Shown: positions 2,413-38,737 of the stretch, one piece after another
How positions within the stretch are numbered: the first letter of the stretch is position 1
Layout of the letters: each line of letters begins with the position of its first letter
IMG/VR virus record: IMGVR_UViG_3300042569_003232
Location: 64,001-128,000 of that record
Origin: a virus
Lineage: Duplodnaviria; Heunggongvirae; Uroviricota; Caudoviricetes
Reading direction: 5' to 3' (one strand)
DNA: 64,000 nucleotides
The notes under the pieces: model-generated
Seen by the model: only the letters and a program-made list of their open reading frames with translations
Databases searched by the model: none
What the model was told of the DNA's origin: nothing
Program-made: the position numbers and the translations under genes

Positions 2413-2420
2413 AAAAAAAT

Positions 2421-2452
2421 AAAAAAGGGAGAATTTAAATTCTCCCTTTTTT
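2421..2452. terminator. Bidirectional intrinsic terminator
   Basis: AAAAAAGGGAGAAT/ATTCTCCCTTTTTT between convergent genes. Confidence 0.85.
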
Positions 2453-2456
2453 ATTT

Positions 2457-3092
2457 TTACTTTTTCAAATATTTCTTTTTTACAATTGTTTGTAGATTGT
2501 AAAATTGGCTAACTTCTGGAATGATTTTATGACGAATCCAATTTCTTCGGTATTTTACTTCAACATTTGTTTCATCTTCAATTACATACTTTTCTAAATT
2601 CTCTTTTGAAATATATTTTAAAATTTGTTCTTTTGTTGAAATTAAAAAAGGACGAAAAACACAAAAACCCAAAAGTTTATATTCCGTTTCATTAGGAATT
2701 GGTAGATATTCCGGTGTTCCGTTAAAGCAGTTCATCAAGTAACTTTCTACTGCATCATCCAAGTGATGCCCTGTAATGACGTTTCCTTGCCCCTTAAACG
2801 ACTGGTAACGTAGGAGACGTAGTTCTGCCTCACTATATGAAATCTCCTTCTCAGCCCTTTCTCGCACGTTTACAGTCAGCGGAATATTATAATCACTGCA
2901 AAAAATTTCAGCATTCTTTTGCATGTCAAAATTTTGACTACGAAGATTGTGATTATAATGAATTGCAGATAAATTTAATTTAGGATATTTCGTTTTTAGA
3001 AAATGAAGAATTGCAATGCTGTCTGCACCGCTACTAAGTGCAACAACTGCTTTTGGATAAACTTTCTTCAAAACATTGCTCATGAATCTCAT
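2457..3092 (-). CDS. tilS: tRNA(Ile)-lysidine synthetase, N-terminal PP-loop domain only
   Basis: ALSSGADS PP-loop, HYNHNLR, R-x-LRY, TGHHLDDAVES, RPFL, YRRNWIRH. Confidence 0.9.
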   Translation of the reverse strand: MRFMSNVLKKVYPKAVVALSSGADSIAILHFLKTKYPKLNLSAIHYNHNLRSQNFDMQKNAEIFCSDYNIPLTVNVRERAEKEISYSEAELRLLRYQSFKGQGNVITGHHLDDAVESYLMNCFNGTPEYLPIPNETEYKLLGFCVFRPFLISTKEQILKYISKENLEKYVIEDETNVEVKYRRNWIRHKIIPEVSQFYNLQTIVKKKYLKK

Positions 3093-8375: not shown

Positions 8376-8690
8376 TTATTTCTTATTCTTACTAAGTTTA
8401 ACCAATCGACAACCCTTAAAGTTATCCATATATTTTTTCAACTCTTCGATTTCATCTCGCTTAATCCACAATGCATGTTTTCTAGGACCAAAAATTAAAC
8501 TTCCAAACATAAACGATTGGAAATTTACATATCCAGTATAAAATTTACTTTTATATGTAGTTTTCAATACATATTCGCCTTCCCGGAGGGTTAATGCAAA
8601 ATTGATATTTTCTCGGACAGTTGTTTTAAGTCCATTGCGATGATTTTTACATTTTTCGTAATTAGCTACTTGTCTTTGAATTATTTTCAT
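8376..8690 (-). CDS. Hypothetical protein
   Basis: 104-aa ORF. Confidence 0.65.
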   Translation of the reverse strand: MKIIQRQVANYEKCKNHRNGLKTTVRENINFALTLREGEYVLKTTYKSKFYTGYVNFQSFMFGSLIFGPRKHALWIKRDEIEELKKYMDNFKGCRLVKLSKNKK

Positions 8691-9129
8691 AGTATCTTTT
8701 CATTAAACTATACAATGTAGGATTAGGAACTGAATGATTTTTTGAAAAAGGAATCCAATGATAACCAAGAATTTCTTCGCAGAATTTAGCAACTGCACCA
8801 CTGCGGCTAATTCCTGCAACACAATTCACTATTACATTACTACCCTTGTTTTGCAAGAGAAAATCAACAATCTTTTTGGCATCTTCAGGAGAAGGTGCTT
8901 TATAAGCATATTCCTCATCATCTTTTTCCAAGTCATAAAAGTTTATTTGTAATCTCGGAATTTCCATTAAAAATGGACTAATCTTAGCCAAATAAACACC
9001 CGGATCATTTATACTGACCCAAATTGTGTTTTCCAATACTACTTCGAAATCTTCCGTATAGTAATATGGCATATTTGCCACAAATGGAAATTTCTCGTTT
9101 TCAAATATTTCTGTATTTAACTGGTTCAT
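8662..9129 (-). CDS. Protein-tyrosine/dual-specificity phosphatase-like protein
   Basis: IVNCVAGISRSGAVA CX5R motif. Confidence 0.85.
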   Translation of the reverse strand: MNQLNTEIFENEKFPFVANMPYYYTEDFEVVLENTIWVSINDPGVYLAKISPFLMEIPRLQINFYDLEKDDEEYAYKAPSPEDAKKIVDFLLQNKGSNVIVNCVAGISRSGAVAKFCEEILGYHWIPFSKNHSVPNPTLYSLMKRYYENNSKTSS

Positions 9130-9131
9130 TT

Positions 9132-9575
9132 TGGTGGAGGTGAGGGGAGTCGAACCCCTGTGTTTAACAATCTAATTTAACAATTCTACACGCTTAGATA
9201 TTTCGCAATTTCTGAGACTTTGGGTTTGCTGGCATATCAACCGATTTTTTTGAGTCATTACCCGCTATTACAAAAAGCTAATAGCTACCTGCATTTTTTG
9301 TTCTATGTATATTGAAATGCTTTTATACAACCTATTTTTAGACCTCAATAATTTTAATAGTATCCATTATTGTTTAACTTAGGCAACCATTTCCATTTCT
9401 TCGACACCGACGAATTCGTCTGCATTGTTGAAAATGTATTCAGCTTGCGCTAGTAGGGCATTGACTTCTGCGTCTTCTGCTTTTATTTGTTTTGATCAGC
9501 TTTTAAAGTAGCCAACTGATCAACTACTACGTGCTATGTTAATTTCAACCATTAAGTCGAAACCAAAACACCCCC
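9132..9575 (-). ncRNA. ssrA: tmRNA; tag reading frame 9379-9480
   Basis: 5' GGGGGTG...TTTCGAC; 3' T-arm plus CACCTCC-ACCA; G3.U70; tag AEDAEVNALLAQAEYIFNNADEFVGVEEMEMVA*. Confidence 0.92.
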
Positions 9576-9902: not shown

Positions 9903-9970
9903 GTAAAAAATATTATAAAATATATAATTAAAATATTTGGAATAATATGGTCTATAATATAAGTATATGT

Positions 9971-10819
9971 ATGCAAGAAAACTTTTTTGAAATTATTAAT
10001 GATGAAACTAAGGCTTATATTTTAGGATTTTTATATGCGGATGGTTGTTTTACTTCAAAAAATAATCGAATTAATGTGAATCTATCGGTAAAAGACTCAG
10101 ATTTATTGAAGCACATGAGTATCGTATTATTAGGAGAAGATAAAACAAAAATTGATACTAAACAATACACATCATATATAAAGAATCGACCTATAAAATC
10201 GAAAGGATTTATAAGACTTCAAATATATAATAAAAAAATGGTCAATGATTTAATCAAAACTGGTAACGAATCGCCCAAATCATTAACATTAACTTTTCCA
10301 TTAAATTTAGATTCTTCATTGTATAATCATTTTATAAGAGGATATTTTGATGGAGATGGCTGTTTGAGTATAAAATCCAATTCTAAAAATAATGTGAAGA
10401 GAGCAACAATTGCTATTTTGAGTAGTTTTTCTTTTTGTGATAAATTAAAAGATATCATCGAAAATCTTTTAAATATAACTACAAATATCATTAAAAAAGG
10501 TAAAATTCATGTATTAGAAATAAATGGGAATAAACAAGTCGAAATATTCACTGATTGGATGTATAAAGATTGCACTATAAAATTAGAAAGAAAATATGAA
10601 AAATATTTAGAATTAAAAAAACTACGAATCAAAGCCACTAAATATTATTCTGAATCTTCTTCCAAGTATAAAAATATTACATATGATAAAACCCGAAATA
10701 AATGGATTGCATGTTGTAGATTACCACTCGAAAAAAGAACTAAACATATCGGTAGATTTGAAACAGAAGAGCAGGCATATGTAGCTCAACAAGAATATTT
10801 AAGAAATATTAGCATTTAG
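9971..10819 (+). mobile_element. Free-standing LAGLIDADG homing endonuclease with C-terminal AP2-like domain
   Basis: AYILGFLYADGC and HFIRGYFDGDGC motifs; KWIA...HIGRFETEEQA; antisense to neighbours; start likely 9971 after TAAGTA. Confidence 0.85.
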
Positions 10820-11410
10820 AAAAATAGACCATTCCTCCCGATAAATATCAAATATCATTCCATTCTTAGGTTTTGTAGGTTTCCATAGAAGTTTCAATCC
10901 ACACTCTTTTGGTGTACGATTACCTTTCCATGTATTAAGAGTTTTGTCACATGTTATTAGATTTTCCCATGTGTTCTCTCCTCCCCTGCTAGAAGGAATT
11001 ATATGATCGGTAGATACGTTATTTTTATCCAAAATCTTTCCCGTGTATCCGCAGGTATAATTGTCCCGACGCCAGATATTAGCTTTAGTAGGGAAAACTA
11101 CTTTTTTATGAACAATTTTATCATATTTGCTGCAAACCACAATTGGCGGCAACCGATAAACATTTTTTGCACTACGAACATATTCATCAAATTCACGAAT
11201 AGGCAGAGATTCCCATTCTTTGAATGAACGAACAACATTCATATAAGAAATCTTTGTTTTATCAACATTCCCATTTTCATCAAATTCATAATTTATATCC
11301 ATAGGATAACACACCCCAGATACAATGTCCACCATAACATCCTTCCAGTTTGCTGTAGCAATTGGAAAATAGCTGGCATTCAGTTTTAGAATTTCTTGTC
11401 TAGCACTCAT
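10799..11410 (-). CDS. HNH endonuclease (McrA-like)
   Basis: RRDNYTCGYTG...STDHIIPSSRGGENTWENLITC...N..KGNRTP. Confidence 0.85.
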   Translation of the reverse strand: MSARQEILKLNASYFPIATANWKDVMVDIVSGVCYPMDINYEFDENGNVDKTKISYMNVVRSFKEWESLPIREFDEYVRSAKNVYRLPPIVVCSKYDKIVHKKVVFPTKANIWRRDNYTCGYTGKILDKNNVSTDHIIPSSRGGENTWENLITCDKTLNTWKGNRTPKECGLKLLWKPTKPKNGMIFDIYREEWSIFLNANIS

Positions 11411-11473: not shown

Positions 11474-11785
11474 TTAATTATTAAATGGTAAATTTTTATA
11501 CTCTAAATATTCTTCTTCAGTTATAACTGTTACATGCTGTACTCCTACAGAATCCGTGTCATCTGGGTAACTTTTGAAATGAAGTGGGTAAATTTCAAAT
11601 GCATAAAAATACTCTTCTCCTTTTTTCCATACATGAATATAAGCCTCGCTTTCAGAAGCGTATACTGTTATATCAGGCAGAAACGGTTTTTCACTATCAA
11701 AATACTTTTTATCACCCGAAGGACTATATTCTCCAACAACAATAAAAATTTTTCTTGGCTGTACTCTTTTTAAATCACATCTCAT
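11474..11785 (-). CDS. Hypothetical protein
   Basis: 103-aa ORF. Confidence 0.65.
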   Translation of the reverse strand: MRCDLKRVQPRKIFIVVGEYSPSGDKKYFDSEKPFLPDITVYASESEAYIHVWKKGEEYFYAFEIYPLHFKSYPDDTDSVGVQHVTVITEEEYLEYKNLPFNN

Positions 11786-11815
11786 AAAATTATTTTAGGA
11801 CTTATATAAAAATCA

Positions 11816-11990
11816 AATCTCTTTCTTCTCTTCTACCGGATAATTCTGCCGTCTACGGTTTTCAGTTTACGAGTTTATTTTTAAGGTTTAAGCTACAAAA
11901 TTTTAAAGATTAAAGTCTTTATCAATATCGAAGTCATATTCCTTGAAGAATGGTTGGTGGCTTTTTTCTTTCGAAGAGAAGAAAGAGATT
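11816..11990 (-). ncRNA. Candidate structured RNA: 18-bp closing stem enclosing ~7-nt periodic repeats
   Basis: Perfect inverted repeat 11816-11833 / 11973-11990; non-coding; 8 nt downstream of the DIP1984-like gene. Confidence 0.65.
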
Positions 11991-11998
11991 GAAAATGT

Positions 11999-12448
11999 TT
12001 AGTCCCAATCTATTTTTGTGGTTGCATTATATTCATCCACACTATCCTGCAAATCTGCAATGTTGTTATTTATTTTGTTGATTAAATATCTCTGATCCGA
12101 CTTTGTGATTGTGTTGACCCATGGTATTTGGCGAGGAACTGTTGTGCTATAATCCATTGCTACTCCTTCATTTATGATTATTTTTTCATGAAATGAAATT
12201 GCAGATTTTGCTTCTGCTAGTTCTACTAATGTTGCTTGAATACCTGCTGAAGCTGTTGCTATTTTTTGCTTGATAAGAATCAGAAGATTTTTTGATTGTT
12301 CCCACTCTCCATAAAGTAAGGAAGGATCTATTGAACTATCGTCACCTTCTCTACGGCAGTTAGAACTCTTAAACAATTCTTCTATTTTTGCTAATTCTCC
12401 GGCAATCCGGTTTTTAATTTTCAATGCTTTGCTAATACTAATTTTCAT
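11999..12448 (-). CDS. DIP1984/DUF6847-like coiled-coil protein
   Basis: MKISISKALKIKNRI... and C-terminal LQDSVDEYNATTKID resemble MKLAEAL.../LD..IQ..NWTTEL family pattern. Confidence 0.6.
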   Translation of the reverse strand: MKISISKALKIKNRIAGELAKIEELFKSSNCRREGDDSSIDPSLLYGEWEQSKNLLILIKQKIATASAGIQATLVELAEAKSAISFHEKIIINEGVAMDYSTTVPRQIPWVNTITKSDQRYLINKINNNIADLQDSVDEYNATTKIDWD

Positions 12449-12465
12449 AATTTTGTTCCTCTATT

Positions 12466-12493
12466 ACTATAGTTTGTTTATGGCATTTATCAA
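12466..12493 (-). promoter_or_regulatory. Sigma70-type promoter TTGATA-N16-TATAGT
   Basis: Motif match upstream of DIP1984-like gene. Confidence 0.65.
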
Positions 12494-12505
12494 CCACTTT
12501 TGTCT

Positions 12506-12637
12506 TTAAATTTTATCTGCTTGATTTATTAACTGTGACCCTAATAAATCCCTCATAAAATCATCTTCGGAACTCATACGTTCACAGTGGCGTTCCATAG
12601 ATTTTATCGCAGAAATGAGTGCTGGGGACTCCAGCAT
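12506..12637 (-). CDS. Possible 43-aa small protein
   Basis: MLESPALISAIKSMERHCERMSSEDDFMRDLLGSQLINQADKI; ATG shares the A of tRNA-Gly CCA. Confidence 0.3.
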   Translation of the reverse strand: MLESPALISAIKSMERHCERMSSEDDFMRDLLGSQLINQADKI

Positions 12638-12798: not shown

Positions 12799-13305
12799 TC
12801 AGTGTGGTGTAAAAGTTACTGAATTATCTCTATCAACTAGAACGCCAACACATTCTTCCGTATCATCTGGAAAAACTTTATAATATTGCGTTCGAATCTC
12901 GTCCACAAAATCATGTCGTCTCACCCACTCGTCTAATTCAGGATTAGTCACTTCTTTGATTCGTAGATTTAACTTTTTCTCCTCTTTTGCCATGCGTTTT
13001 TGTAAAGATTGAATACTTTTGATGAATTTATCTTTATGTTTTACCTTTGGCATCATGGCATCTTGTGCGCGTTGTAAATAATATATGGGTTTCTCTAAAC
13101 TATACAAATCCAAATCATAGATATGTATTCCATTTACCTCAAGGATATAGTCTATATACCACATGCGGGGATCATCTAAATTAAGCAATAAAAAACTGAA
13201 ATTCTGGACAAAATCAAATTTATCAAAAATAGGTTTTGAAATTTTGAGCATCCAATTTTTTAATAAGATTTCATCATTCATTTCATCATTCATTTTATCA
13301 TTCAT
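12799..13305 (-). CDS. Hypothetical protein
   Basis: 168-aa ORF. Confidence 0.7.
   Translation of the reverse strand: MNDKMNDEMNDEILLKNWMLKISKPIFDKFDFVQNFSFLLLNLDDPRMWYIDYILEVNGIHIYDLDLYSLEKPIYYLQRAQDAMMPKVKHKDKFIKSIQSLQKRMAKEEKKLNLRIKEVTNPELDEWVRRHDFVDEIRTQYYKVFPDDTEECVGVLVDRDNSVTFTPH
13270..13305 (-). repeat. 3 x 12-bp tandem repeat at gene start (MNDK-MNDE-MNDE)
   Basis: ATGAATGATAAA ATGAATGATGAA ATGAATGATGAA. Confidence 0.8.
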
Positions 13306-13328
13306 TTTATAAATCTATTGTATTTTGT

Positions 13329-13766
13329 TTAACTATTATATTTCCAGATAATTGCATCAGGGAAATATCTTTCGATTATTTCACTTACAATTTTCCAATC
13401 ACCTCCACCAGTTCCGCAACCAAAAAGATATGGAAAATTATAAATACCAGACAGTTCATTATTCGCAAAAAGCTGAAAGCTATTTTCCATTGCAGCATAA
13501 TCTGTATGCAATCCTGTTTTTCCATAAGAATCTTGACTGAATACATTTACAACTTTGCAATCTTCTAATTCCACTACTTGATAAGTTCCAAGAGGTGAAA
13601 TTCCATTTTTTCTACATTCATCTCCGAATGAGATATAACTATTATAGACTTTTGGAAAAGTGTTTCTTATTTGAAGTGCAATTCCGCTTCCCATTACAAA
13701 TTTACAATTTGTTTGATGAAACAAATAACCTTTTTGTTCTAATAGATTTCCTTCTTTTATAATCAT
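13329..13766 (-). CDS. Macro-domain (ADP-ribose-processing) protein
   Basis: IKEGNLL...HQTNC..VMGSGIALQI...FPYLFGCGTGGGDW. Confidence 0.85.
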   Translation of the reverse strand: MIIKEGNLLEQKGYLFHQTNCKFVMGSGIALQIRNTFPKVYNSYISFGDECRKNGISPLGTYQVVELEDCKVVNVFSQDSYGKTGLHTDYAAMENSFQLFANNELSGIYNFPYLFGCGTGGGDWKIVSEIIERYFPDAIIWKYNS

Positions 13767-26400: not shown

Positions 26401-28639
26401 AAAATCTTTAAATGGAAATCAATCAATATTTTCTAAATTACTAAAAATTAATATTGAGAACTCTGATTTTATTATTAATGAAAATTCCGTTAATCATTGT
26501 AAAGTATTCTTATCAGGAAATATAGGAATTAATATTCCCGGTTATGATTATTGCACTCAAAATGTACCATTATTTTCTAATATTGTGGATTTGATTGCAT
26601 ATAATGGTCCTAATCTTTATTTGTACACTGGTAAGAATTTGCTATCTACCGGGGAAACTGCTACTTTTTATAATGGAAGTAATACGAACTTTTCGTCATT
26701 ACCTTTTTCTGGATTTTCTTCATTTGTATTCGATAATGGGGAAGGATCTCTACAAAGTTCTTTATCAGAATTTTTAACTACTTCATACTCTTCAGAAGGA
26801 AATAAATCTCCTTCATTAACTGGAATTTTAAATGATGGCTCAACTACAGTTCAAACTTGGCATAATATGATTTATGTAAAAAACTCTTTTGAAAAATATG
26901 ACCCTAGCATTCAAAGAGAATTTTATGATGAAATAATTTTACCATATAATTTAGAAGAAACTAGAATTAACCCTAATGATTGGCAATTTGCTGATAAAAT
27001 AAATCAATGCTTAACGAAATTCCAAACAAATATGGAATACTTGAGTGCAAGTTGTTCTATAAACAATATCAATTTCCCTAAAGCAAATGCTGGTTTCTTA
27101 GGTTCGCTATTTGGGAATTTCAAATGGCATACTATTTATTCTCCTGATAATATTCAGGATATTTATTTTAAAAATTTGAAATCTGCACAAATCATAGAAG
27201 ACAAACTATTAACTGTTAATGAAAATTATATTCAGATATATTCAATTGACGAAACACCTGAATTATTATATTCTTTCAATCGTTTAGGAGATGGTGAAGT
27301 TTTAGAAGAACCAATTACCATTAGATATAATTCTAATGAAAAAAGATTGTTCATTCTTGATCGTGGAAAAAATACTTTTTTTGTTTGTGAATTTGATATA
27401 AATGTTCCTCAAAATATCAAACTTACTCATTATTGGGGAGGTGTCGGTGAAAGAACTGATCGTACTAAACTAAACAGTCCTACTGATTTCTGTGTTGATA
27501 AAGATGAACAATTATATATTGTTGATAAAGATTCTTATATCATCAAAGTTTATAATAAAAATCTAAACTGGTTAAATAATATTCAGTTAGATAATTTCTC
27601 TGCAAACAATCGTCCAATTTCTATTTCCGAAAAAGATGGAATTTTTATCGTATTAACAGAAGATAATTACATCACTGTATTCGATAAAAATGAAAAAATA
27701 ATTAATTCTTTCTTTGTTCCTGAATGTAATAATGCGGTATTAAATCAAATTTATGATGGAATCGTATATGCTATTTCAAATAATACTCTTTTCAAATATT
27801 CTCTCAACGGAACAAAAATTTCATCTAAAACATTCTTTGATCCAATAATTGAAGTATTTTTCGACTATACAAACCTATATGTTTTAACTCCTCAATACAT
27901 TTATCGTTATATTGATTTCACTGAAATAGACAAAATCATTGATGAGGATGAAGACAAAGCAGGTTTCCAATGGAATAATATTTTCGTATCAGAAAAAGAA
28001 TTTGTAACTGCATACATTTATAACGATTCATTCCAAAAAATATATGATAATGCAAACTTGTTGAATAGCCGAATATTTAAAAAATTATATATTAATATTG
28101 ATGAAAAAGGTGATGTAATTTATCAATCTACTAGTTCAGTATCTCCGAGTGCATTGACTAATCGTCCTATATTACTAGGAACAAATGAGCCAGTATTATA
28201 TGACACAATTAATCGTAGTATTGAAAATCTATACAATAGTATTGTGGAGTTAAAAGATAACATTAATTATCTTAGCATTTACCCAAATCATAACAATAAT
28301 TTGCAATGGTCATGGAAATATCACTATATTGATTCTATTCAACGACCATCATTGAATAAAAATCCGATTTCTTGGAAAGAACTTCGTAGTAATCAAATAA
28401 CTGGAAGTACACAATTAAGCGGCATTTCATCATGGTGCGTGCTTCGTGGTGGTGTTCCCGGAAATCATTCACTAATATGCTGGAATTTCCAACAAACTCA
28501 ATGCAATAGTTTATTCCCATTAACATGGGAAGAATTAGAATGTGGAAATTGCAGATATCCTTTTAGTTGGAGCGATTTAGAAAATAATTGCTGCAAAACT
28601 CCTGATTTCGTTTTTGAAGATTGCGTATCCCTCTGCTAA
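23420..28639 (+). CDS. Large virion structural protein (baseplate/tail) with PKD-like and NHL-like segments
   Basis: 1739 aa, S/T/N-rich beta composition; F-VFDNGEG PKD-like; LNSPTDFCVDKDEQLYIVD NHL-like. Confidence 0.7.
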   Translation: MLLSAIQIANPYPNEKIDISFNELNPQLSNARFGVRFRYFYYDTWEGKINFRKTNDYTLIGNNTVGTVLSATSPTNFLNPNDLAPFRWNVKSDREYLYLTLLGGLSALTIWPSHPMPKMTKNNNFSMSLDIGVVSASAFNGEVQTPDFRKLVKKSNFSTVDFSDSNIDTLSGYATLAGGRKNYEYTRNINYYRVFNSSSLSPDLIANSLRIDIPVITSTNIAVDVPDQIFILSFYNDYFTNDNFNYISNNFVTNLSCLESEVLTEMGITTPYTVQASMNDKSGGVLIELKPPLYIKPNSDITVWYETSSPIAPGGVLFQKTATNNFSLSVNQGVYPNSPVYLFNYNFVSPTKDLFTVTFAPSSFVTSQTISSTTVETVMVDNYYQNSYDMPTTSNILFKRFIETSGDNTLLAYRASAPATTYVSEQWFPANSHQQIIFKNNGSGNKHKVRIQLQTAAGAIFEEENQIEFLLNKDKVVFNLFLTSSTDSTAIVEANIFPTPSNEYRVKWDANPPDNIIFRDRNDNILQRNTFYPLHVYSKVSNLGIDKTEIVLYSEEYDLSANTFWFPPSSVFGSAYLEIKGETNDFNSTNYSTLSAFVNRNGYSYRVPTNANIIWNETANDNRGSVVLYTKDNLKTIKESTIYSSSNNYSLINATFSTIPVESDPKQVLFNISCNLFRDDFNFNATKMFSFRQYPLKQYLFIDAKKESDSNVYRSDEYTNIFYSTSGTILLSAIYANLNVNSADVKWDYKYSNGTVGNATGSSLNITLNTASACVYLSAFNATPVDGDFKAYNFTDYMCFYLLSSIQPFSYIGIPSNIYVPIYQQEIGDRDGNTTALSFQNNSYLNSLGMSAYKPCHTENFQFSATPGFDRYVWKIGSKIYETNSSFAVIPVTYNDVSSNNKVSVSAYNSIFIESNPVSIYNSASSDNSSVFREDVQFYDFPSPDVFITLSNNYFNVNKYAETPELNCTINTSYTTLVNYNVNLVLSSANFFQTKSLNGNQSIFSKLLKINIENSDFIINENSVNHCKVFLSGNIGINIPGYDYCTQNVPLFSNIVDLIAYNGPNLYLYTGKNLLSTGETATFYNGSNTNFSSLPFSGFSSFVFDNGEGSLQSSLSEFLTTSYSSEGNKSPSLTGILNDGSTTVQTWHNMIYVKNSFEKYDPSIQREFYDEIILPYNLEETRINPNDWQFADKINQCLTKFQTNMEYLSASCSINNINFPKANAGFLGSLFGNFKWHTIYSPDNIQDIYFKNLKSAQIIEDKLLTVNENYIQIYSIDETPELLYSFNRLGDGEVLEEPITIRYNSNEKRLFILDRGKNTFFVCEFDINVPQNIKLTHYWGGVGERTDRTKLNSPTDFCVDKDEQLYIVDKDSYIIKVYNKNLNWLNNIQLDNFSANNRPISISEKDGIFIVLTEDNYITVFDKNEKIINSFFVPECNNAVLNQIYDGIVYAISNNTLFKYSLNGTKISSKTFFDPIIEVFFDYTNLYVLTPQYIYRYIDFTEIDKIIDEDEDKAGFQWNNIFVSEKEFVTAYIYNDSFQKIYDNANLLNSRIFKKLYINIDEKGDVIYQSTSSVSPSALTNRPILLGTNEPVLYDTINRSIENLYNSIVELKDNINYLSIYPNHNNNLQWSWKYHYIDSIQRPSLNKNPISWKELRSNQITGSTQLSGISSWCVLRGGVPGNHSLICWNFQQTQCNSLFPLTWEELECGNCRYPFSWSDLENNCCKTPDFVFEDCVSLC

Positions 28640-38205: not shown

Positions 38206-38737
38206 CTGTTTTAAACGTCTCATTACCGACATTATTGGAAAACACAAACCTATTACTGGTAAATGTTTTTCCAATAATGTCGGTTTTTATTTTGGTATAT
38301 TGTTCTCCTTTGCCGGGAAGAAGATATCCAATAGTAGAGTGAGGATGATACCTTGGATAGCTATCCGTTGCATCAAAATTATTAGTTATAATATCGTTTA
38401 ATTCCATTAATGATTTTGATTTTACATCAAATTTCAAAACATCGTATGCTTTATTCCTAAACAATGAAATATTAGTTAATGAAAAAGTAATTGGTTCAAA
38501 TTTCAACTTTTTTTCAAAAAAACTGAAATTTTGATCATGTAATCCATACTTGACGGTAATATGCGGTTTTTGCTCTAACCCATGTCTCGGTGTTAAATCA
38601 TAAACATCGCAGGGACATATTTTTTCTTGTATTTTCTGAAAGTCCGGAAGAAGAAACCCTAAGTCTAACATTAAACATGCATAAGGTCTTGGAGTTGTAT
38701 TTTCAATAAACAATTGGTAAAATTCTGTAAATTTCAT
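38198..38737 (-). CDS. acb1: 2H phosphoesterase, T4 57B/Acb1-like anti-CBASS
   Basis: KPHITVKYGL and YHPHSTIGY motifs. Confidence 0.7.
   Translation of the reverse strand: MKFTEFYQLFIENTTPRPYACLMLDLGFLLPDFQKIQEKICPCDVYDLTPRHGLEQKPHITVKYGLHDQNFSFFEKKLKFEPITFSLTNISLFRNKAYDVLKFDVKSKSLMELNDIITNNFDATDSYPRYHPHSTIGYLLPGKGEQYTKIKTDIIGKTFTSNRFVFSNNVGNETFKTVI

What the first reader, a model, noticed from the sequence alone, without database searches (positions are those of the whole stretch)
11816..12493. DIP1984-like coiled-coil gene with a downstream RNA: 18-bp clamp enclosing ~7-nt periodic repeats
Eight nt after the stop codon, a perfect 18-bp inverted repeat (11973-11990 with 11816-11833) closes a 139-nt interior that is mostly unpaired. 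The interior carries units with ~7-nt period on the sense strand: TAAAGAC TTTAATC TTTAAAA ... TTAAACC TTAAAAA TAAACTC GTAAACT GAAAACC GTAGAC. The gene has its own N16 promoter and, unusually for this window, an SD-like AGAGGA. Inference: a two-component protein plus ncRNA system in which an oligomer of the helical-hairpin protein binds one repeat per subunit. Function unknown (anti-defence, RNP scaffold or toxin-antitoxin-like).
Basis: partly seen in the sequence, partly recalled or inferred. Interest (0 to 1): 0.8.

Follow-up and report, generated by a model that had tools for sequence, protein, structure and literature searches.

The report
Heptad-repeat RNA behind DIP1984-like gene
A small gene of unknown function in a large lake-water phage is followed by a conserved folded RNA of about 175 bases that carries evenly spaced 7-base units. 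The same gene-plus-RNA pair recurs in about a hundred phage and bacterial loci, often next to the RNA-repair ligase RtcB. It matches no catalogued RNA family, so it is probably an undescribed protein-RNA particle.

Summary
A perfect 18-bp inverted repeat (11816-11833 / 11973-11990) starts 8 nt after the stop of a 149-aa gene (11999-12448, minus strand). Its 139-nt interior has a significant 7-nt period.

It is a real RNA element on the gene's strand:
- It is better conserved than the gene itself in related phage contigs.
- 16 of 39 pairs show compensatory changes.
- A covariance model built without the window finds it at 145 bits, against 27 bits for the antisense strand.
- A sequence profile of the heptad core finds 49 further loci (17 viral, 32 prokaryotic). 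In 48 of them the hit starts 46-266 nt after the stop of a homologous gene.

The protein is a distant relative of DIP1984/DUF6847. Its best structural match is 3KDQ, and it is predicted to self-associate.

RtcB lies beside the module in 23 of 64 prokaryotic loci. In phages the module sits in co-oriented tRNA arrays. No Rfam 15 family or paper describes it.

Best reading: a co-transcribed protein-RNA particle, perhaps working in tRNA or RNA repair. Binding and function are untested. This scan has already found the same module on other DNA.

The parts
12466..12493 (-). sigma-70-like promoter TTGATA-N16-TATAGT of the gene-plus-RNA unit
   Evidence: Consensus scan scores 10 of 12. TTGACA plus TACAGT/TATAGT sites lie in the corresponding upstream stretch of L002 and L003, although those upstream regions are only 52-58% identical.
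11999..12448 (-). 149-aa helical protein gene, a distant relative of DIP1984/DUF6847
   Evidence: NF038048 matches full length but below cut-off: E 9e-5, 22.7 bits against a cut-off of 70. Of 62 relatives, 21 hit NF038048 and 5 hit PF20935. AlphaFold2 pLDDT is 97.5. The best PDB match is 3KDQ, probability 1.00, TM 0.65. A profile search finds 1656 cluster representatives.
11816..11990 (-). whole structured RNA element (P1 to P1), about 175 nt
   Evidence: Model R2, built without the window, scores 145.4 bits (E 1.7e-28) on the minus strand and 27 bits on the plus strand. There are stop codons in all three frames. No Rfam 15 match.
11973..11990 (-). P1 5' arm, all pyrimidine except the two leading A
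   Evidence: Perfect 18-bp pairing. 11 of 17 P1 pairs have compensatory changes across 6 sequences.
11959..11972 (-). A-rich box GAAAGAAAAAAGCC
   Evidence: Invariant in the window, L002 and L003. L012 and L014 carry the similar GAAACGGAAAAGCC. It can form an alternative 6-bp hairpin with the 5' arm in partial folds.
11938..11951 (-). P2 hairpin
   Evidence: Consensus helix 2 has 2 of 5 pairs with double changes.
11916..11929 (-). GA-hexamer repeats GATATT GATAAA GA
   Evidence: Invariant in the three closest loci. GA-N4-GA-N4-GA occurs in 40 of 120 flanks against 81 of 708 background windows. The median position of the stricter GAHWHN-type hexamer match (18 of 120 flanks) is 70 nt after the stop.
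11905..11920 (-). P3 hairpin AAAGA-CUUUAA-UCUUU
   Evidence: Consensus helix 4 is 85.7% paired, but with no double changes.
11851..11892 (-). heptad array: CTTAAAC CTTAAAA ATAAACT CGTAAAC TGAAAAC CGTAGAC
   Evidence: The best 6-unit array agrees at 31 of 42 positions. Lag-7 z = 4.4. Family-wide lag-7 autocorrelation is 0.343 against 0.268, p = 2e-47. The arrays align in register across 32 loci.
11849..11872 (-). P4 helix enclosing two heptads
   Evidence: Consensus helix 5 has 3 of 6 pairs with double changes. The window's own minimum-energy fold prefers a shorter CCG/CGG hairpin here.
11834..11850 (-). conserved 3' box GGCAGAAUUAUCCGGUA
   Evidence: GGCnGAAUUA...AGUA is kept in L002, L003, L007, L012 and L014.
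11816..11833 (-). P1 3' arm, all purine except the two trailing U
11806..11815 (-). U-rich tail UGAUUUUUAU after P1, a possible 3' end
   Evidence: Read from the sequence. It is not conserved as a U-tract in L003. More distant loci have a separate GC-rich terminator hairpin right after the RNA.
10799..11410 (-). 203-aa HNH endonuclease gene, a recurrent neighbour of the module
   Evidence: Matches HNH_4 and HNH_5. It is 71% identical to the neighbour in L002. It is 30% identical over its full length (E 6e-31) to the HNH gene of the Verrucomicrobial loci, and is present in 13 of those loci.

Best explanation
The gene and the RNA form one transcription unit on the minus strand: promoter, 149-aa DIP1984-like protein, then about 175 nt of structured RNA that starts 8 nt after the stop. 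The RNA is a member of a large, uncatalogued RNA family that always trails genes of this protein family. Its two ends are clamped by a long helix (P1). Inside it presents a short GA-hexamer array, small hairpins and a single-stranded row of about 6-8 heptads (YAAA every 7 nt). The most likely mechanism is that the protein, which is predicted to self-associate, binds this periodic array in cis as it is made and forms a stable ribonucleoprotein. Each protein unit would read one repeat, much as TRAP and HutP read phased triplets. Context suggests the particle works on damaged RNA or tRNA. In bacteria it sits directly upstream of the RNA ligase RtcB, the position Y RNAs hold in the Salmonella rsr-yrlBA-rtcBA operon. 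In phages it sits inside co-oriented tRNA arrays. Shown here: the RNA structure, its conservation, its strand, its coupling to the gene, the periodicity, and the RtcB, tRNA and HNH neighbourhood. Inferred: co-transcription, protein-RNA binding, stoichiometry, and the repair or counter-defence role.
For: (1) The element is more conserved than its surroundings. Window against L002/L003: element 71-74% identity, CDS 60-62%, upstream spacer 52-54%. The proteins are only 50% identical.
(2) Structure. 16 of 39 pairs have changes on both sides (0 of 500 shuffles reach this; slid controls give 1-5). P1 has 11 of 17 such pairs.
(3) Strand. G.U pairs form only on the gene strand. R1 scores 202 bits sense against 40 antisense. 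R2, built without the window, scores 145 against 27.
(4) Coupling to the gene family. R1 finds L014, L012, L013 and L007 directly after the stop. Sequence-only profile R3 finds 49 loci outside its seed alignment in 556 kb searched on both strands. 48 of these start 46-266 nt after the stop, all on the gene strand. The only other hits are the 49th locus, L038, about 873 nt downstream, and its antisense overlap.
(5) Closing helix family-wide. Mean best helix is 10.8 bp against 8.6-8.75 in controls, and 43 of 146 flanks reach 12 bp or more against 16 of 288 controls. Duplex energy test p = 2e-16.
(6) Heptads family-wide. Lag-7 autocorrelation is 0.343 against 0.268, p = 2e-47. CTCAAA, CTTAAA and TCAAAA are enriched 4- to 7-fold.
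(7) Self-association. ipSAE score is 0.72, best of 3 controls 0.00. The mark was reached by 20 of 30 proteins solved as pairs of one chain and by 1 of 23 solved as single chains. The three runs agree in at least 91% of contacts, and the partner's pLDDT is at least 85. The counts hold only roughly, because I used my own alignment and four copies. The multi-chain crystal 3KDQ of a relative exists, so the pass may come from memory.
(8) Context. RtcB lies within 2.5 kb in 23 of 64 prokaryotic loci, with RtcB versions only 25-28% identical between lineages (Opitutaceae/Akkermansia, Victivallales/Lentisphaerae, Kiritimatiellae, Bacteroidales). In L126 the RNA ends about 25 nt before rtcB. tRNAs occur in 13 of 64 viral loci, and all 57 are co-oriented with the gene, some abutting the module.
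(9) In several loci a canonical terminator or a tRNA follows the RNA, so the RNA belongs to the upstream unit.
(10) Conserved basic residues K10, K12, K60 and K81.
Against: No direct evidence of transcription, processing or binding was available. The predicted interface is a symmetric dimer, which does not by itself explain 6-8 phased sites. The structure-aware models do not reach distant members, so family-wide homology of P1-P4 rests on separate statistics and on a sequence-only core profile. RtcB is absent from 31 of 32 phage records that carry the module, and from the held 136 kb of this phage. About two thirds of prokaryotic loci have no RtcB within 2.5 kb. The repair link may therefore hold only for some lineages. 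The alignments used for pair counts were fitted to the model, which favours the structure.
Confidence: 0.55

Rival explanations
1. A cis-acting 3'-UTR element of the protein's own mRNA. The clamp and array would stabilise the message or let the protein feed back on its own synthesis. The RNA would have no function apart from the mRNA.
For: The RNA starts 8 nt after the stop with no terminator in between. It always lies directly downstream on the same strand. No separate promoter for the RNA was detected.
Against: At about 175 nt, with several conserved hairpins and two periodic arrays, it is far more elaborate than known bacterial 3'-UTR stabilisers. It is more conserved than the coding sequence. 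Its position between the gene and rtcB, or inside tRNA arrays that are processed into separate RNAs, fits a released RNA.
Confidence: 0.2
2. An independent non-coding RNA that the neighbouring protein does not bind, for example a partner, decoy or substrate of RtcB, of tRNA-processing enzymes or of host nucleases. The gene adjacency would reflect only shared regulation.
For: RtcB and tRNA neighbourhood. P1 brings the 5' and 3' ends together, as in RNAs that are ligated or circularised. Heptads such as CUYAAAA and UUCAAAU resemble tRNA loop sequences (the resemblance is from my own knowledge of tRNA loops).
Against: The RNA was found only behind this protein family: no R3 hit anywhere else in 556 kb. 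The pairing persists in loci that have neither RtcB nor tRNAs. Such strict one-to-one linkage is typical of direct partners.
Confidence: 0.12
3. A type III toxin-antitoxin-like pair: the protein is toxic and the repeat RNA neutralises it.
For: A small protein coupled to a repeat-bearing RNA. Found on phages and on possibly mobile islands, with two copies per genome in Nibricoccus and in Geminisphaera.
Against: Known type III systems place arrays of about 34-36-nt repeats upstream of an endoribonuclease toxin that cuts them (own knowledge of ToxIN/AbiQ/CptIN). Here the units are 7 nt, they lie downstream, and the protein is a helical bundle with no nuclease family hit.
Confidence: 0.05
4. A terminator or attenuator that controls the downstream gene. 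The purine-rich 3' arm would act as a masked ribosome-binding site for the next ORF.
For: A U-rich tract follows P1 in the window. The purine arm lies 9-30 nt before the next ATG in the window, L002 and L003.
Against: The downstream genes are unrelated: a 103-aa ORF, a 38-aa ORF, tRNAs, rtcB, or a separate terminator. A 139-nt loop is not an intrinsic terminator. This phage's evident terminators are short GC-rich hairpins. P1 arm sequences are unrelated in distant loci.
Confidence: 0.04
5. A miniature inverted-repeat mobile element, or a DNA-level cruciform.
For: An 18-bp terminal inverted repeat flanks about 140 bp.
Against: It is single copy in the record and has no target-site duplication. 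Its position relative to the gene is fixed across about a hundred loci. G.U pairs are strand-specific, and the sense score far exceeds the antisense score.
Confidence: 0.01

Closest known systems
Ro60 (Rsr) with bacterial Y RNAs (YrlA/YrlB), including the Salmonella rsr-yrlBA-rtcBA operon (PMC4201824; PMC7790460)
   Same: A protein gene is followed on the same strand by a structured RNA of about 100-200 nt whose ends pair in a long stem. The RNA lies between the protein gene and rtcB. The pair occurs in both bacteria and phages and is linked to tRNA biology.
   Different: No TROVE/Ro60 gene was found in the held record. No Y-RNA or YrlA Rfam match. No tRNA-like domain. The protein is a 149-aa helical bundle, not a HEAT-repeat ring. 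The heptad array has no counterpart in Y RNAs.
TRAP with the trp leader, and HutP with the hut terminator RNA (phased triplets read by an oligomeric protein; own knowledge)
   Same: Short motifs repeated at a fixed spacing in single-stranded RNA. HutP sites are NAG triplets with 4-nt spacers, which also gives a 7-nt period.
   Different: Those RNAs are 5' leaders that control termination of downstream genes. The proteins are beta-rich rings unrelated to this fold: no Pfam hit, and the best structural match is 3KDQ. Here the RNA is 3' of the gene and clamped by a long helix.
DIP1984 family (NCBIfam NF038048) / Pfam DUF6847 / crystal structure 3KDQ from Corynebacterium diphtheriae, function unknown
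   Same: The same length (about 150 aa), a full-length profile alignment and the same fold (probability 1.00, TM 0.65).
   Different: The score is far below the family cut-off (22.7 against 70 bits). The window protein does not hit PF20935 itself. No paper on the family was found.
GOLLD and ROOL large non-coding RNAs of phages (Rfam RF02032 and others)
   Same: Uncharacterised structured RNAs that sit in or beside phage tRNA arrays. GOLLD lies about 700 nt from the module in L049 and L061.
   Different: They are much larger (400-800 nt), have no obligatory protein partner gene and no heptad array. The window has no match to them.
Type III toxin-antitoxin systems (ToxIN, AbiQ/antiQ, CptIN)
   Same: A protein coupled to a tandem-repeat RNA, often on phages or mobile DNA.
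   Different: The repeat unit (about 35 nt), the gene order (RNA first) and the endoribonuclease toxin fold are all absent here.

Membership tests
DIP1984 family (NCBIfam NF038048) | Whole-protein score at or above the curated cut-off of 70 bits | tested here: not met
   22.7 bits, E 9e-5, aligned over 6-144 of the protein and 3-147 of 149 profile positions. 21 of 62 relatives match, the best at E 1.1e-10.
DIP1984 family (NCBIfam NF038048) | Fold like the solved member 3KDQ | tested here: met
   The AlphaFold2 model (pLDDT 97.5) has 3kdq_C and 3kdq_A as its two top PDB matches: probability 1.00, TM 0.65-0.66, E 2.6e-3.
Pfam DUF6847 (PF20935) | Pfam match of the protein | tested here: not met
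   The window protein has no PF20935 hit. 5 of 62 relatives hit it, the best at E 1.5e-7. This indicates a sister branch, not a member by the curated threshold.
Bacterial Y RNA / Ro60 RNP | RNA matches the Y RNA or YrlA covariance models | tested here: not met
   No such Rfam 15 hit in the window or in 40 related loci at gathering score, and none at E up to 10 on the element.
Bacterial Y RNA / Ro60 RNP | Adjacent Ro60/TROVE gene | tested here: not met
   No PF05731 match in the 136-kb record. That record is only about 52% of the genome. The gene next to the RNA is the DIP1984-like one.
Intrinsic terminator | GC-rich stem, a loop of 3-8 nt, then a U-tract | tested here: not met
   The loop is 139 nt. 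The terminator scan reports nothing here. The U-tract is not conserved.
Type III toxin-antitoxin | Tandem repeats of about 35 nt upstream of an endoribonuclease toxin gene | tested here: not met
   The units are 7 nt and lie downstream. There is no nuclease family hit in Pfam, PHROGs or PADLOC.
TRAP/HutP-type phased-motif RNA operators | Short motif repeated at fixed spacing in single-stranded RNA | tested here: met
   Lag-7 z = 4.1-4.4 in the window. Family-wide p = 2e-47.
TRAP/HutP-type phased-motif RNA operators | Partner protein homologous to TRAP or HutP; RNA located in a 5' leader | tested here: not met
   No such Pfam hit. The fold matches 3KDQ. The RNA lies 3' of the gene.
MITE / mobile inverted-repeat element | Multiple dispersed copies with target-site duplications | tested here: not met
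   Single copy in the record. No flanking direct repeat.

The most novel reading that the evidence does not exclude
The DIP1984-like protein and its heptad-array RNA form a widespread, so far undescribed ribonucleoprotein of bacteria and large phages that works with RtcB-type RNA ligation on damaged tRNA or RNA. In this role it would take the place that Ro60-Y RNA holds in the rsr-yrlBA-rtcBA operon. Phages would carry it in their tRNA islands to keep translation going when host defences cut tRNAs. A variant of this reading is that the P1-clamped RNA is itself cut and ligated (circularised) by the neighbouring HNH and RtcB enzymes.
Probability: 0.3. Interest if true: 0.9.

Novelty: categorically new. 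Interest (0 to 1): 0.8.

Why it matters
If the reading is right, this adds a new class of protein-RNA particle. The protein family has more than 1,600 representative clusters (at 50% identity) across several bacterial phyla and many large phages. It has a solved but unexplained structure (3KDQ) and a partner RNA that is in no RNA database I could search. The phased 7-nt array is a rare, readily testable RNA-recognition design. The repeated adjacency to RtcB, whose natural substrates and helpers are still poorly defined, gives a concrete handle on bacterial RNA repair. It may also help explain why large phages carry tRNA islands. At the least, it is a sizeable RNA family that should be added to Rfam, and it gives DUF6847/DIP1984 proteins a first functional association.

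Tried and rejected
- Nucleotide search of the region against GenBank phages found no match.
- A search of viral contigs with the single protein found no relatives. A search with an alignment was needed.
- Exact-pattern scans of viral contigs found nothing or one chance match inside a coding region, L006.
- PDB sequence searches with the protein and with a profile found no hit.
- PHROGs and PADLOC gave only weak coiled-coil noise (SbcC, JetC, LmuB).
- AFDB Swiss-Prot gave only weak matches to prefoldin-like and other coiled coils.
- Sequencing runs: the DNA is held by lake-water metagenome runs. No RNA holder was listed and none was listed for kind rna, so expression could not be examined and no reads were laid.
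- The structure-aware models R1 and R2 reach only the close subfamily. MAFFT plus RNAalifold on diverse full-length or core sequences gave no consensus structure. Family-wide P1 support therefore comes from helix-length and duplex-energy statistics.
My profile A4 found nothing in the T5 genome at E up to 1. That note concerns a 208-aa protein, so it may be another branch.
- RtcB (PF01139), T4-type RNA ligase 1 (PF09511) and TROVE (PF05731) were not found in the held half of this phage genome. For PF09511 no control genome matched either, so that blank shows nothing.
Alignment A2 worked.
- Rejected readings: a coding region (stops in all frames); a MITE; a plain terminator; a C/D-box sRNA (Rfam hits at E 1-3 only, and the CUGA box is not conserved).
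Full report
**Setting.** The window is bases 64001-128000 of a 135.9-kb IMG/VR virus record estimated at about 52% complete. That makes it a large phage. GC content is about 30%. The DNA is held by many lake-water metagenome runs. The finding lies in a minus-strand region rich in RNA genes: 21 tRNAs and a tmRNA at 9132-9575.

**The observation.** The gene is 11999-12448 on the minus strand and encodes 149 aa.
- Its stop codon TAA is at 12001-11999. Eight nucleotides later the 5' arm AATCTCTTTCTTCTCTTC (11990-11973) begins.
- The perfect complement GAAGAGAAGAAAGAGATT lies at 11833-11816, leaving 139 nt between the arms.
- An inverted repeat this long with a spacer of 300 nt or less was reached in 1 of 100 block shuffles of the window.
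- The element is single copy in the record.
- The interior has a real 7-nt period. Lag-7 autocorrelation gives z = 4.1, rising to 4.4 in the 3' part, and lag 14 gives z = 3.3.
- The promoter-like TTGATA-N16-TATAGT site at 12493-12466 is present, and L002 and L003 have TTGACA plus TACAGT/TATAGT sites in the corresponding upstream stretch.
- The SD-like AGAGGA is not conserved in those two loci.

**It is a conserved RNA on the gene's strand.** The word-based protein search found only five relatives.
- Two relatives, about 50% identical in protein, come from contigs L002 and L003. Both carry the same element right after their stop codons.
- The element is 71-74% identical to the window's copy. 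The coding sequence is 60-62% identical and the upstream spacer 52-54%. All three reading frames hold stop codons.
- The changes in P1 are compensatory. The G.U pairs exist only on the gene strand.
- Covariance model R1, built from these three sequences, found four further loci (L007, L012, L013, L014). Each hit starts at the stop of the homologous gene, with E between 4e-9 and 5e-6.
- Model R2 was rebuilt from five sequences without the window. It scored the window's element at 145.4 bits (E 1.7e-28), against 27 bits for the antisense strand.
- On the six-sequence alignment, 16 of 39 pairs show changes on both sides. None of 500 shuffles reach that number, and slid controls give 1-5. P1 has 11 of 17 such pairs, and P2 and P4 also covary. 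That alignment is fitted to the model, which favours the structure.

**The protein.** Pfam finds nothing. NCBIfam DIP1984_fam aligns end to end but scores only 22.7 bits against a cut-off of 70.
- A profile search of 1.84 billion cluster representatives found 1656 proteins of about 150 aa.
- Of 62 sampled relatives, 21 match DIP1984_fam and 5 match DUF6847.
- The AlphaFold2 model is very confident (pLDDT 97.5). It is a three-helix bundle with short strands at the N terminus, the middle and the C terminus.
- Its two best PDB matches are chains of 3KDQ, an unannotated Corynebacterium diphtheriae protein, with probability 1.00 and TM 0.65. Prefoldin subunits follow far behind.
- Four copies were folded together. 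The ipSAE score was 0.72 and the best of 3 controls 0.00. The mark was reached by 20 of 30 proteins solved as pairs of one chain and by 1 of 23 solved as single chains. The three runs agree in at least 91% of contacts, and the partner's pLDDT is at least 85. The interface is symmetric along helix 2.
- Those calibration counts hold only roughly, because I used my own alignment and four copies. The pass may also reflect memory of 3KDQ.
- The conserved residues include K10, K12, K60 and K81 and the motifs ALKxKNR and QDxxDxxNA.

**The pair is family-wide.** With protein alignments I fetched 80 viral loci and 64 prokaryotic loci. The prokaryotic loci come from Verrucomicrobia, Lentisphaerae, Planctomycetes, Kiritimatiellae, Bacteroidota, Armatimonadetes, a Synechococcus MAG and Eubacteriales.
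- In the 3' flanks the best long-range helix very often starts 1-25 nt after the stop and closes 160-225 nt later, with unrelated arm sequences. Examples are 19 bp in L008, 18 bp in L017, L118 and L121, and 16 bp in L030 and L101.
- The mean best helix is 10.8 bp, against 8.6-8.75 in shuffles and at random positions. 43 of 146 flanks reach 12 bp or more, against 16 of 288 controls.
- A duplex-energy test gives p = 2e-16.
- Individual folds share one plan: P1, a 5' hairpin, GA-hexamer repeats, a hairpin, a row of heptads, and a 3' tail.
- Across 120 dereplicated flanks, lag-7 autocorrelation is 0.343 against 0.268 in 708 background windows (p = 2e-47). The most enriched hexamers are CTCAAA, AAACTC, CTTAAA and TCAAAA.
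- MAFFT aligns the heptad rows of 32 diverse loci in register.
- A sequence-only profile of that core (R3) was searched over 99 sources, 556 kb on both strands. It found 49 loci outside the seed alignment, 17 viral and 32 prokaryotic.
- All 49 hits are on the gene strand. 48 start 46-266 nt after the stop, with a median of 88. The 49th is L038, about 873 nt downstream, and the only other hit is its antisense overlap.

**Not a catalogued RNA.** Rfam 15 gives no match at gathering score in the window or in 40 related loci. Only chance-level hits appear at E up to 10 on the element. Full-text searches for DIP1984, DUF6847 and 3KDQ found nothing relevant. The literature library holds open-access papers only.

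**Context.**
- *Phages.* 13 of 64 dereplicated viral loci hold tRNAs within 2.5 kb. All 57 tRNAs are co-oriented with the gene. Some end about 33 nt before the gene or begin about 250-340 nt after its stop. GOLLD RNA lies nearby in two loci.
- *Prokaryotes.* RtcB lies within 2.5 kb in 23 of 64 loci. The RtcB versions are only 25-28% identical between lineages, so this is not one inherited arrangement.
- *Opitutaceae.* The gene order is tRNAs, HNH, sigma-70 factor, a 224-aa unknown, the DIP1984-like gene, the RNA, then rtcB starting about 25 nt after the RNA.
- *HNH gene.* The window's 203-aa HNH gene (10799-11410) is the next named gene after the RNA, beyond an unrelated 103-aa ORF (11474-11785). 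It is a full-length homolog of the Opitutaceae HNH gene (30% identity, E 6e-31).
- *Phage RtcB.* Phage records rarely encode RtcB (1 of 32), and the held part of this phage does not. This phage does have matches to the PF09414 ligase family outside the window.
- *What follows the RNA.* The downstream feature varies: unrelated small ORFs, tRNAs, rtcB, or a canonical terminator. This argues that the RNA belongs to the upstream gene and does not regulate what follows.

**Interpretation.** The best-supported reading is a co-transcribed protein-RNA module.
- P1 clamps the ends of the RNA, and the single-stranded heptad row is the likely docking rail for repeated copies of the self-associating protein.
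- TRAP and HutP show that phased short motifs can be read by oligomeric proteins, and HutP sites also have a 7-nt period (own knowledge). Neither the protein fold nor the RNA's position matches those systems.
- The nearest analogue by genomic logic is Ro60 with Y RNA, encoded upstream of rtcBA in Salmonella and present in phages (PMC4201824; PMC7790460). Every membership test for that family failed here.
- I put 0.55 on a true RNP and about 0.3 on the further claim that it acts in RtcB-linked RNA or tRNA repair, or in phage counter-defence.
- The rivals are a cis-acting 3'-UTR element (0.2), an independent RNA not bound by this protein (0.12), a type III toxin-antitoxin-like pair (0.05), a terminator or attenuator (0.04) and a mobile element (0.01).
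- Transcription, processing, binding and function are all untested. No RNA run could be listed for this DNA (see the tried-and-rejected section).

**Relation to earlier notes of this scan.** After reaching the above, I found that the scan had already reported the same kind of module on other genomes, with the same general conclusion. These are unchecked AI notes and I do not count them as support. One claim, presence in phage T5, was not reproduced with my protein profile.

**Verdict.** The module is real, widespread and, as far as I could search, undescribed.

Noticed in passing
window 11959-11990 (minus strand): In this subfamily the P1 5' arm is nearly all pyrimidine and the 3' arm nearly all purine. 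They stay so through the compensatory changes, which are C/U paired with G/A. The invariant purine box GAAAGAAAAAAG directly after the 5' arm can form an alternative 6-bp hairpin with it in partial (co-transcriptional) folds. This could be a folding intermediate, a switch or a triplex-prone segment.
   Followed up: partly
window 13329-13766 (-), 8662-9129 (-), 9132-9575 (-): A Macro-domain protein (E 4.6e-6) lies upstream of the module. A DSP-type Cys phosphatase (CX5R motif, E 3.6e-6, below the Pfam cut-off) abuts the tmRNA. Together with the tRNAs they make this stretch look like an RNA or translation maintenance island.
   Followed up: partly
window 9947-10819 (+): A LAGLIDADG homing endonuclease gene lies on the opposite strand between the HNH gene and the 92-aa ORF. 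Those two genes are adjacent in the syntenic contig L002, so this looks like a recent insertion.
   Followed up: partly
G000:C1:46853-47317, 28078-28545, 12203-12508, 12952-13437 (outside the window): The same phage record has four matches to the RNA/DNA ligase family PF09414, the best at 113.7 bits. These may be the phage's own ligases in place of RtcB.
   Followed up: no
L049 3642-4076 and 1823-1885; L061 3639-4069: GOLLD RNA (243 bits) lies about 700 nt downstream of the module in two phage contigs. A freshwater-1 RNA lies about 1.1 kb upstream in L049. All sit within dense tRNA arrays.
   Followed up: no
L089/L090 (Nibricoccus MAG, about 38 kb apart) and L126/L127 (Geminisphaera colitermitum TAV2): There are two copies per genome of the whole cassette: HNH, sigma-70 factor, the 224-aa unknown (not detected in L126), the DIP1984-like gene, the RNA and RtcB (broken or truncated in L089). 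Several tRNAs lie upstream in L126. The cassette may be a mobile or prophage-like island.
   Followed up: partly
heptad arrays in many loci (for example L066, L082, L049, L118; window 11851-11892): Many units read CUCAAAA, CUUAAAA or UUCAAAU. These are the same 7-nt strings as tRNA-Leu (CAA/UAA) anticodon loops or T-loops. This may be coincidence, or a hint of tRNA-loop mimicry. The window's own units (CUUAAAC, CGUAAAC) fit less well.
   Followed up: no
L038 3838-3927: This is the only locus where the RNA core profile hits far from the gene (about 873 nt after its stop). It may reflect an insertion between gene and RNA, or a mis-called stop.
   Followed up: no
window 2415-2458 and 38225-38284: Two other long perfect inverted repeats: a 22-bp palindrome with no spacer, and an 18-bp pair with a 24-nt spacer. 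Several 15-17-bp GC-rich hairpins flanked by A and T runs look like bidirectional terminators.
   Followed up: no
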